Source: Escherichia coli
GTDB lineage: Bacteria > Pseudomonadota > Gammaproteobacteria > Enterobacterales > Enterobacteriaceae
Strand: one strand, 5' to 3'
Assembly: GCF_013122565.1 (NCBI RefSeq)
Contig: NZ_CP053258.1
DNA length: 64,000 nt
The stretch's first letter is position 1; the number at the start of each line of letters is the position of its first letter. A program made the translations under genes and the position numbers. This document shows positions 10,961 through 11,830 of the stretch, piece after piece. The notes beneath the pieces are model-generated. The model was not told the origin of the DNA. It was given only the letters and a program-made list of their open reading frames with translations, and did not search any database.

Positions 10961-11009
10961 AACCCCTGCCGGATCAGACTCATCAGTGTGACTATCCGGT
11001 AGAGGTAAA

Positions 11010-11495
11010 TTACTCCAGAGTAATGGGATACAGTAAGGTAAGTGACTGGAATGGTGAAGGTACAAAGGCATACTTCAGATAGAAATTGCGTACTGAATCG
11101 TCTAAAGCATGAACAATGAGCGCACGAACCCCTACCTGTTGAGCTATGGACATTGTGCGATAGACTGCATCTTTCAACAATGCGACGCCCAGCCCTTTAC
11201 CTGCCCAGGCTTGATCAATTGCCAGTCTGCCTAATACGACAACAGGCAACGATTCGGGAGCATTACGTCGCATGGCTCCAGGGGTCAAATTACGTTGAAT
11301 ACTGCCTGTAGAAAGGCAGTAATAGCCGATTACCTGACGGGTATTGGCAATACAGATAACGTAAACACGAGACAGACCGGAGCTGTGATTTTTTAACTCT
11401 TTCTTTTTTAGCCATTCATTCATCCCGTGATCGGAACAGCAAAAGTCAGCCAGATTATGTTCAGACGTTAGGGGAGTAGGAGGCGTTATTCCCAT
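11010..11495 (-). CDS. GNAT-family acetyltransferase toxin (TacT/AtaT/ItaT/KacT-type) of a type II TA pair
   Basis: 161 aa; GNAT motif A (GRLAID...AWAGKGLGVALL); 10-bp overlap with the upstream small gene. Confidence 0.8.
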   Translation of the reverse strand: MGITPPTPLTSEHNLADFCCSDHGMNEWLKKKELKNHSSGLSRVYVICIANTRQVIGYYCLSTGSIQRNLTPGAMRRNAPESLPVVVLGRLAIDQAWAGKGLGVALLKDAVYRTMSIAQQVGVRALIVHALDDSVRNFYLKYAFVPSPFQSLTLLYPITLE

Positions 11496-11764
11496 GGCGA
11501 TTTACGATTCATCAACGCGTTAATTTTGGCCTGACGCTCAGCAGTGATGGGGGCGTCCAGGGCAGCCAGAAATGCATCGTATTGCTCGTCATCAACGATG
11601 AATAGTCGTTGATCTAATAAGATGTCTTGCGCTTCACGGCATGCGGCATCCAGCATAAAATCAGTGCGCGATTTTGCGACCAGATTCGCTGCCATATCAA
11701 TCAGGTCACGCTGTGAGGCTTTCGCCCTGATATTGATTGGCGCTTCTTTGCTTTCCGGTTTCAT
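11486..11764 (-). CDS. DUF1778/RHH-type antitoxin partner (TacA/AtaR-like)
   Basis: 92 aa; directly upstream of and overlapping the GNAT toxin gene. Confidence 0.75.
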   Translation of the reverse strand: MKPESKEAPINIRAKASQRDLIDMAANLVAKSRTDFMLDAACREAQDILLDQRLFIVDDEQYDAFLAALDAPITAERQAKINALMNRKSPWE

Positions 11765-11830
11765 ATTGATGAGCCTGTAGTGCGATTTTATATACAGTAT
11801 AAAGAGTGTACATAAAAACGCTATACAAAC

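What the first reader, a model, noticed from the sequence alone, without database searches (positions are those of the whole stretch)
10961..11830. GNAT-acetyltransferase toxin / DUF1778 antitoxin type II TA cassette inserted between convergent rtcA and malT
The two minus-strand genes overlap by 10 bp, antitoxin first. The toxin carries GNAT motif A and the FCC..L N-terminal signature of the aminoacyl-tRNA-acetylating toxins (TacT/AtaT/ItaT/KacT). As I recall, K-12 has no genes between rtcA and malT. The 66-bp leader (11765-11830) contains a TATAAAAT -10-like box and a palindrome (tatacagtata, tgtaca) that could be the antitoxin's autoregulatory operator. The tRNA target cannot be predicted from the sequence.
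Basis: partly seen in the sequence, partly recalled or inferred. Interest (0 to 1): 0.55.

Follow-up and report, generated by a model that had tools for sequence, protein, structure and literature searches.

The report
Known AtaR2-AtaT2 toxin-antitoxin cassette
This is the already characterised E. coli AtaR2-AtaT2 toxin-antitoxin pair, whose toxin stops translation by acetylating glycine-charged tRNA; it sits at its usual site between malT and rtcA, so the finding is real but ordinary.

Summary
Two minus-strand genes, a 92-aa antitoxin (11486-11764) and a 161-aa toxin (11010-11495), overlap by 10 bp. They fill the 870-bp gap between rtcA and malT, which is 42 bp in K-12.

The pair is not new. 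It is the orthologue of ataR2-ataT2 (ECs4261-ECs4262) of E. coli O157:H7 Sakai, at the same locus. The toxin is 158/161 identical and the antitoxin 91/92. Both match the solved complex 7F37 (E 1e-104 and 5e-55).

Published work on AtaT2 shows:
- toxicity that AtaR2 neutralises;
- dependence on the catalytic residue Y139, which is present here;
- acetyl-CoA-dependent acetylation of the glycyl moiety of all Gly-tRNAGly isoacceptors;
- ribosome stalling at Gly codons, and reversal by peptidyl-tRNA hydrolase (Pth).

The cassette is in 394 of 5,426 complete E. coli genomes. It is always single-copy, chromosomal and at this site. Its GC content is 46% against 54-59% in the flanks.

My additions are modest:
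- The 66-bp leader is one long conserved inverted repeat (27-nt arms) lying over the promoter-like hexamers.
- The insert rewrites the last codons of rtcA.
- This toxin allele carries three substitutions. One of them, A33E, lies in the basic helix that TacT work implicates in tRNA binding.

Verdict: already known, low interest.

The parts
10938..11827 (.). DNA present here but absent from the K-12 empty site. About 890 bp replaces about 50 bp that includes the K-12 rtcA/malT intergenic hairpin.
   Evidence: Alignment of the window, K-12 RP437, O157 strain 144 and Combat11I9. Cassette GC is 46% against 59% for rtcA and 54% for malT.
11486..11764 (-). ataR2 antitoxin, 92 aa, with a ribbon-helix-helix DUF1778/TacA1 domain.
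   Evidence: Pfam PF08681, E 2.9e-19. 7F37_C matches at E 4.7e-55. 91/92 identical to Sakai ECs_4261, differing at L57V. The exact protein is widespread and lay between malT and rtcA in all 10 places shown.
11010..11495 (-). ataT2 GNAT toxin, 161 aa. Y139, GKGLG, K32, K35, R76, R77 and R90 are retained. The allele carries A5P, A33E and A71T.
   Evidence: 7F37_B matches at E 9.5e-105 and TacT at 2.5e-42. 158/161 identical to Sakai ECs_4262. GNAT Pfam hits. Residue mapping from the alignment with TacT and plasmid homologues.
11765..11833 (-). Leader carrying the putative promoter and operator. It is a long imperfect inverted repeat with arms at 11807-11833 and 11770-11796 and 10 nt between them. 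The upstream arm reaches into the malT stop codon.
   Evidence: Repeat search. Shuffle test: score 12 against a mean of 5.5 (sd 1.0), 0 of 2000 shuffles as high. Citrobacter and Klebsiella plasmid homologues have the same architecture (18/21 and 16/20), with invariant blocks in the leader alignment.
11785..11812 (-). Sigma-70-like hexamers TGTACA-16 nt-TAAAAT inside the inverted repeat. An alternative -10, TATACT, lies at 11796-11801.
   Evidence: Consensus scan, 9 of 12 matches. The number of such sites in the region is no higher than in shuffles. The plasmid homologues have TATAAT at the position of the alternative -10. No transcription start was determined.
10962..11006 (-). Hairpin after the toxin stop codon, followed by GGGGUUUUAAU. 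It is a candidate terminator for ataR2-ataT2 and for any malT read-through, and it abuts the rtcA stop codon.
   Evidence: Inverted repeat with 13-nt arms, 85% complementary. RNA fold -20.7 kcal/mol, z = -1.9. It did not pass the strict terminator scan.
10938..10960 (+). New 3' end of rtcA supplied by the insert. The RtcA tail is ...[10 protein letters not shown] instead of the K-12 tail ...TRVSIE*.
   Evidence: Junction alignment. Annotated rtcA is 1029 nt in carriers and 1017 nt in K-12.

Best explanation
The cassette is the chromosomal type II toxin-antitoxin operon ataR2-ataT2.

Inferred from the sequence and from what is known of the family:
- One promoter in the 66-bp leader drives both genes.
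- The toxin has no Shine-Dalgarno sequence of its own. Its ATG overlaps the antitoxin stop codon (ATGGGAATAA), so its translation is probably coupled to that of the antitoxin.
- AtaR2 binds the long palindrome over the promoter through its N-terminal ribbon-helix-helix domain and represses the operon.
- When the labile antitoxin is lost, free toxin accumulates.

Shown for the 98%-identical Sakai proteins:
- AtaR2 and AtaT2 form a complex of about 99 kDa, read as a toxin dimer bound to an antitoxin tetramer. In this complex the toxin is inactive.
- Free AtaT2 uses acetyl-CoA to acetylate the alpha-amino group of glycine on all Gly-tRNAGly isoacceptors.
- The acetylated tRNA cannot take part in elongation, so ribosomes stall at all four Gly codons without a ppGpp response.
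- Peptidyl-tRNA hydrolase removes the acetyl-glycine.

The cassette is foreign DNA fixed at one chromosomal site in a minority of E. coli lineages. Its nearest relatives outside E. coli that I found are on IncF-type enterobacterial plasmids.
For: Locus and sequence identity. Sakai ECs_4261 and ECs_4262 lie between malT (ECs_4260) and rtcA (ECs_4263). PMC7470980 names ECs4261-ECs4262 as ataRT2. The window proteins are 91/92 and 158/161 identical to them, and Y139 is present.

Solved structure. 7F37 chains B and C carry the Sakai residues at every position where the window differs. They match at E 1e-104 and 5e-55.

Published function. PMC7470980 shows toxicity, loss of toxicity with Y139A, neutralisation by AtaR2, stalling at Gly codons, and the +42 Da mass shift on Gly-tRNAGly that Pth reverses. 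PMC9177977 shows exclusive Gly-tRNAGly acetylation in vivo.

Domains. TacA1/DUF1778 at E 2.9e-19 and GNAT hits.

Operator. The inverted repeat scores far above shuffles and is conserved in homologues that are about 70% identical at the nucleotide level.

Population. 394 of 5,426 genomes carry it, in one copy at the same site. GC content is low. Plasmid relatives lie between traT and traD.
Against: Nothing was assayed for this allele. It has three amino-acid changes against three synonymous ones in the toxin. A33E puts an acidic residue between K32 and K35. These correspond to TacT K33 and K36, which lie in the groove modelled to bind the tRNA acceptor stem, and TacT K36E abolishes toxicity. 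Activity could therefore be reduced.

The promoter call is a consensus match that is no more frequent here than in shuffles. DNA binding by AtaR2 at this leader has not been shown in anything I read.

NCBIfam gave no hit at E <= 0.001 and PADLOC gave none.

The physiological trigger and role are unknown.
Confidence: 0.9

Rival explanations
1. The cassette is AtaRT2 by descent, but this particular toxin allele is attenuated or inactive. It would be a decaying TA module in which the antitoxin and operator persist while the toxin loses its bite.
For: The exact toxin sequence was seen on only one contig. Toxin changes are 3 non-synonymous against 3 synonymous. A33E lies in the basic helix KKKALK, next to the equivalents of TacT K33 and K36. 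None of the 13 other cluster members I read has E33 or T71. In two of ten other carrier loci the toxin reading frame is broken after codon 8 while the antitoxin is intact.
Against: The reading frame is intact. The catalytic Y139, the acetyl-CoA motif, K32, K35, R76, R77 and R90 are all retained. In TacT the single substitution K33E had little effect. The two frameshifts in other strains may be assembly errors in a C-run; one of those loci has 3 indels in 5.9 kb.
Confidence: 0.12
2. The biological role of the pair is defence against phage by abortive infection, or stabilisation of the locus as a selfish element, rather than stress-induced persistence.
For: Close relatives sit on conjugative IncF plasmids between traT and traD, which fits an addiction or stabilisation role. 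The distribution in E. coli is patchy at 7%. GC content is foreign.
Against: No PADLOC defence model matches either protein. There are no neighbouring defence or mobility genes: the insert holds only the two genes, the leader and a hairpin. Nothing I read tests a phage phenotype for AtaRT2.
Confidence: 0.15
3. The larger gene is a housekeeping acetyltransferase (RimI-like, protein or small-molecule) and the small upstream ORF is unrelated to it.
For: The Pfam GNAT hits are only generic and weak, E about 1e-4. NCBIfam gives no specific family.
Against: All 15 solved-structure matches at E <= 0.01 are GNAT chains from DUF1778-type toxin-antitoxin systems, among them the TacT, AtaT and KacT entries. 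The best is a co-crystal with the cognate antitoxin. The 98%-identical orthologue has been shown to be toxic and to acetylate Gly-tRNAGly.
Confidence: 0.01

Closest known systems
AtaR2-AtaT2 (ataRT2, ECs4261-ECs4262) of E. coli O157:H7 Sakai; solved complex PDB 7F37
   Same: Same chromosomal site between malT and rtcA, same gene order and the same 10-bp overlap. The toxin is 158/161 identical and the antitoxin 91/92. The cassette is 98.4% identical at the nucleotide level. Y139 is present.
   Different: The toxin has A5P, A33E and A71T, and the antitoxin has L57V. One leader base differs (11769), which removes the upstream in-frame ATG that some annotations use to call a 94-aa antitoxin. The host genome is at most 97-98.6% identical to any complete RefSeq E. 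coli genome.
TacA-TacT (T8/A8) of Salmonella Typhimurium (PDB 5FVJ, 7F36, 7AK8)
   Same: GNAT toxin with a DUF1778 antitoxin. The toxin is 43% identical. The catalytic Tyr, the acetyl-CoA motif and most of the basic tRNA-groove residues are conserved. TacT is reported as Gly-tRNAGly-specific in vivo and is reversed by Pth.
   Different: Different species and locus. TacT K146 has no basic equivalent here (V145). The N-terminal motif is FVSG rather than FCCS.
AtaR-AtaT (ECs4308-ECs4307) of E. coli O157:H7, KacA-KacT of Klebsiella, and ItaR-ItaT of E. coli HS
   Same: Same family and operon architecture. AtaRT and KacAT are reported with the same toxin-dimer/antitoxin-tetramer stoichiometry as AtaRT2.
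   Different: These are distant. AtaT is 29% identical to AtaT2 according to PMC7470980, and matches here at E about 1e-19. AtaT and ItaT belong to clades A and B, which have relaxed specificity or prefer Ile/Leu, whereas AtaT2 is in the Gly-specific clade D.
Unnamed GNAT/DUF1778 cassettes on IncF-type plasmids of Citrobacter, Enterobacter and Klebsiella
   Same: The toxins are 64-71% identical. The antitoxin-first overlap and 92-aa antitoxin are the same. The leader is alignable and has the same long inverted repeat.
   Different: They are plasmid-borne. In two of the three I fetched they lie between traT and traD. None is closer than about 72% nucleotide identity, so they are relatives and not the direct donor.

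Membership tests
AtaRT2 orthologue group (E. coli ECs4261-ECs4262) | Same chromosomal locus: immediately downstream of malT, convergent with rtcA | tested here: met
   Sakai annotation, junction alignment, and all 394 carrier genomes cover both flanks.
AtaRT2 orthologue group (E. coli ECs4261-ECs4262) | Near-identity of both proteins to the characterised pair | tested here: met
   158/161 and 91/92. 7F37 chains B and C match at E 1e-104 and 5e-55.
AtaRT2 orthologue group (E. coli ECs4261-ECs4262) | Specific acetylation of Gly-tRNAGly and ribosome stalling at Gly codons | not testable with these tools
   Shown for the Sakai protein (PMC7470980 and PMC9177977). For this allele it is inferred from 98% identity.
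GNAT / DUF1778 (TacAT-type) type II toxin-antitoxin family | Two-gene operon, antitoxin first, closely spaced or overlapping | tested here: met
   10-bp overlap at 11486-11495.
GNAT / DUF1778 (TacAT-type) type II toxin-antitoxin family | Toxin with a GNAT fold, an acetyl-CoA-binding motif and the catalytic tyrosine | tested here: met
   Pfam Acetyltransf_7, _1 and _10. GKGLG and Y139 are present, and A92 corresponds to TacT A93. Strong matches to solved GNAT toxins.
GNAT / DUF1778 (TacAT-type) type II toxin-antitoxin family | Antitoxin with a DUF1778/TacA1 ribbon-helix-helix domain | tested here: met
   PF08681, E 2.9e-19, residues 10-85.
GNAT / DUF1778 (TacAT-type) type II toxin-antitoxin family | Toxicity on expression, neutralised by the cognate antitoxin through complex formation | not testable with these tools
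   Shown for the Sakai pair, and a co-crystal exists (7F37).
GNAT / DUF1778 (TacAT-type) type II toxin-antitoxin family | Autoregulation through antitoxin binding to a palindromic operator at the promoter | tested here: inconclusive
   The sequence feature is present, significant and conserved. Neither binding nor repression can be tested here, and I found no report of either for AtaR2.
Known anti-phage defence systems (PADLOC) | Match to a defence-system protein model | tested here: not met
   No family matched either protein at E <= 0.001.

The most novel reading that the evidence does not exclude
Two readings remain open, neither of them dramatic.

(1) The rare A5P/A33E/A71T toxin allele, with a glutamate in the basic tRNA-binding helix, could be a naturally attenuated or re-tuned AtaT2.

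(2) The insert removed the hairpin that follows malT in K-12, and no terminator-like site lies between the malT stop codon and the operator. ataR2-ataT2 may therefore be co-transcribed with malT. That would tie TA expression to CRP/Mlc control of the maltose activator, and the shared terminator would abut the rtcBA RNA-repair operon.
Probability: 0.12. Interest if true: 0.3.

Novelty: already known. Interest (0 to 1): 0.1.

Why it matters
It matters little beyond correct annotation. RefSeq annotates the toxin gene only as 'GNAT family N-acetyltransferase'. The antitoxin gene is annotated as 'DUF1778 domain-containing protein' or, in some records, 'type II toxin-antitoxin system TacA family antitoxin'. 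They can instead be named ataT2 and ataR2, with a known target, Gly-tRNAGly.

The useful by-products are:
- a population figure: 7.3% of complete E. coli genomes, always at one site;
- exact insertion junctions, including an altered RtcA C-terminus;
- a conserved 64-bp palindromic leader that is a ready target for footprinting;
- a natural toxin variant (A33E) that could serve as a probe of the tRNA-binding groove.

Tried and rejected
- NCBIfam and PADLOC scans of both proteins returned nothing at E <= 0.001. Neither library supports or names the family.
- My first cluster look-up used wrong minus-strand coordinates that cut off the start codons, so its 'not in the collection' result is void. 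The repeat with the correct sequences found both proteins.
- The look-up of contigs encoding the exact toxin found none on record. The source genome is therefore known only from the NCBI accessions QJU26583.1 / WP_171460239.1.
- A full-text search for '7F37' returned only unrelated papers, and a search for AtaR2 with 'crystal structure' found no structure paper. I assign 7F37 to AtaT2-AtaR2 on sequence identity with Sakai. I did not read the primary paper.
- The strict terminator scan found no minus-strand terminator in 10850-12000. The hairpin at 10962-11006 folds only moderately better than shuffles, z = -1.9, so I call it a candidate only.
- I considered that the K-12 hairpin (GCCGGAT...ATCCGGC) and the hairpin here share stems and might be homologous, which would place the true left junction at about 11001. 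The intervening rtcA 3' end does not align, so I kept 10937/10938 as the break in homology.
- I did not run the expensive genome contigs or metagenome scans. The identity was already settled, and the direction of the event (insertion or loss) would not change the verdict.

Full report
**Observation**

- rtcA (+) ends at 10960, and malT (-) has its stop codon at 11831-11833.
- Between them lie two minus-strand ORFs: a 92-aa ORF (11486-11764) followed by a 161-aa ORF (11010-11495).
- The two ORFs overlap by 10 bp (ATGGGAATAA).
- The 66-bp leader (11765-11830) contains TATAAAAT, the palindrome TATACTGTATA and TGTACA.
- In the K-12 derivative RP437 the rtcA-malT gap is 42 bp and holds no gene.

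**What the proteins are**

Against all solved structures, the larger protein's best match is 7F37 chain B (E 9.5e-105, three differences over 161 residues). The next matches are Salmonella TacT entries (E about 2.5e-42), AtaT (about 1e-19) and KacT (about 1e-17). The smaller protein matches 7F37 chain C (E 4.7e-55, one difference), followed by TacA-type antitoxins.

Pfam gives generic GNAT hits for the toxin (E about 1e-4) and PF08681 TacA1, the former DUF1778, for the antitoxin (E 2.9e-19).

**Identity with a named system**

PMC7470980 states that E. coli O157:H7 Sakai carries two GNAT modules: ataRT (ECs4308-ECs4307) and ataRT2 (ECs4261-ECs4262). In the Sakai RefSeq record, ECs_4261 (279 nt) and ECs_4262 (486 nt) lie between malT (ECs_4260) and rtcA (ECs_4263).

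Comparing the Sakai genes with the window:
- Toxin: 158/161 identical, with A5P, A33E and A71T in the window.
- Antitoxin: 91/92 identical, with L57V.
- Cassette: 98.4% nucleotide identity.

The 7F37 chains carry the Sakai residues at all four positions, so that entry is the Sakai-type AtaT2-AtaR2 complex. I infer this from sequence and did not read the structure paper. The window therefore holds the ataR2-ataT2 orthologue at its canonical locus.

**How it works**

These steps were shown for the Sakai pair and are inferred here from 98% identity:
- A 30-minute induction of ataT2 sharply reduces viable counts.
- Y139A, or co-expression of AtaR2, abolishes the toxicity.
- The two proteins co-purify as a complex of about 99 kDa, read as a toxin dimer plus an antitoxin tetramer.
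- Purified AtaT2 blocks in vitro translation only when acetyl-CoA is present.
- Ribosome profiling shows stalling at all four Gly codons, with no ppGpp accumulation.
- Mass spectrometry shows +42 Da on the glycyl moiety of Gly-tRNAGly. Ile-tRNAIle is not modified, and Pth removes the modification.

PMC9177977 confirms exclusive Gly-tRNAGly acetylation in vivo. It places AtaT2 in clade D, one of the two Gly-specific clades (C and D) that together hold most GNAT-toxin diversity.

The window toxin keeps Y139, the GKGLG acetyl-CoA motif, and K32, K35, R76, R77 and R90. These are the equivalents of TacT K33, K36, R77, R78 and R91.

**Anatomy of the insert**

- Left junction. Alignment with the K-12 empty site shows that homology breaks at 10937/10938, inside rtcA. 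The insert supplies the last seven codons and the stop codon of rtcA. RtcA ends ...[10 protein letters not shown] in carriers and ...TRVSIE in K-12.
- Right junction. It lies three bases after the malT stop codon.
- Size. About 890 bp replaces about 50 bp, including the K-12 intergenic hairpin.
- Composition. Cassette GC is 46%, against 59% for rtcA and 54% for malT.
- Hairpin. One follows the toxin stop codon at 10962-11006, with a GGGGUUUUAAU tail (-20.7 kcal/mol, z = -1.9). It is a candidate terminator only, since the strict scan did not call it.
- Read-through. No terminator-like site lies between the malT stop codon and the antitoxin start codon. Read-through from malT is therefore possible but untested.
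- Translation. The toxin ATG has no recognisable Shine-Dalgarno sequence upstream. Together with the overlap, this suggests translational coupling. This is an inference.

**Leader**

Its arms are 11807-11833 and 11770-11796 (27 nt each, 21/27 complementary), with 10 nt between them. In 2000 shuffles of the leader the best inverted-repeat score averaged 5.5 (sd 1.0) and never reached the observed 12.

The repeat covers the best sigma-70-like match, TGTACA-16-TAAAAT at 11812-11785. Such matches are no more frequent here than in shuffles. An alternative -10, TATACT (11796-11801), aligns with a perfect TATAAT in the plasmid homologues.

Plasmid cassettes that are 67-72% identical at the nucleotide level keep an alignable leader with invariant blocks (TTTGTxTAGC, TATAxTTGTxTATAxAA). 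Two of the three keep the same long inverted repeat: 18/21 in Citrobacter and 16/20 in Klebsiella. The Enterobacter leader retains only a 7-nt one.

This is good sequence evidence for a promoter/operator bound by the ribbon-helix-helix antitoxin. Binding itself is untested.

**Population**

The 870-bp cassette is found in 394 of 5,426 complete E. coli genomes (7.3%). In each it is present once, on the chromosome, at 97.8-98.9% identity. The same 394 genomes cover at least 80% of a query that spans both flanks, so all copies sit at the rtcA-malT site. Among the genomes listed, O157:H7, O55:H7 and O145 strains predominate.

The exact antitoxin protein is very widespread, and in all ten places shown it lies between malT and rtcA. 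The exact toxin allele was seen on a single 4.82-Mb E. coli contig (QJU26583.1 / WP_171460239.1). Thirteen other alleles from the same 90% cluster lack E33 and T71, and one shares P5.

The nearest relatives outside this locus that I found are on enterobacterial plasmids. In two of the three I fetched they lie between traT and traD of IncF plasmids.

**The one point of uncertainty**

A33E puts a glutamate between K32 and K35, in the helix that corresponds to the TacT groove modelled to hold the tRNA acceptor stem. In TacT, K36E abolishes toxicity while K33E alone has little effect. The position is Ala in all the E. coli and plasmid homologues I aligned, and Gly in TacT.

The toxin has three non-synonymous and three synonymous differences from Sakai. 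This allele could therefore be somewhat attenuated. I give that about 12%.

**Verdict**

Novelty: already known. Interest: low.

Noticed in passing
L010:3270-3755 and L012:3270-3755 (other E. coli carriers of the same antitoxin): In two of ten carrier loci the toxin reading frame is broken after codon 8, in a run of C's, while the antitoxin is intact. This could be real toxin decay or indel errors in the assemblies; L012 has 3 gaps in 5.9 kb.
   Followed up: partly
window 10938-10960: The insert changes the C-terminus of RtcA from ...TRVSIE (K-12) to ...[10 protein letters not shown] in carriers, and it places the toxin's terminator-like hairpin directly after the rtcA stop codon.
   Followed up: partly
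window 11830-11950 (3' end of malT) and 10800-10937 (3' end of rtcA): The flanks next to the cassette are only about 93.6% identical to K-12 but 97-98% identical to other carriers. The cassette seems to travel with a linked haplotype of its flanks, which fits spread by homologous recombination.
   Followed up: no
whole window (tested 1-25000 and 29877-54876): No complete RefSeq E. coli genome is closer than 97.1% over 1-25000 or 98.6% over 29877-54876, although gene order is standard E. coli. The source appears to be a lineage poorly represented among complete genomes.
   Followed up: partly
window 162-2448 and 2449-3260: Three plus-strand ORFs (235, 262 and 258 aa) lie beyond glpD. Their counterparts in strain C325 are annotated only as hypothetical proteins. 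Window 1-2413 does not align to Sakai, where an ABC-transporter ATP-binding protein and a membrane protein are annotated at the corresponding place. glpD lies about 0.97 kb further along the window than along the C325 locus, so the glpD-distal region is variable.
   Followed up: no
window 3137-3179 (+): The only Rfam match above gathering score in the window is the ES036 (CssrF) sRNA, 39.4 bits against a threshold of 37.6, just beyond the 3' end of glpD.
   Followed up: no
window 23484-23511 (bioH / rpnA gap) versus L018:22534-23165: Strain C325 carries a second type II cassette (PemK/MazF toxin with an AbrB/MazE antitoxin) between bioH and rpnA. The window has only a 26-bp gap there, so this is another small TA insertion polymorphism in the same neighbourhood.
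   Followed up: no
window 11769: A single leader difference from Sakai turns the upstream in-frame ATG (MNMKPE..., the 94-aa antitoxin of some annotations) into ATC. Together with the plasmid homologues, this supports the 92-aa start at 11764.
   Followed up: yes
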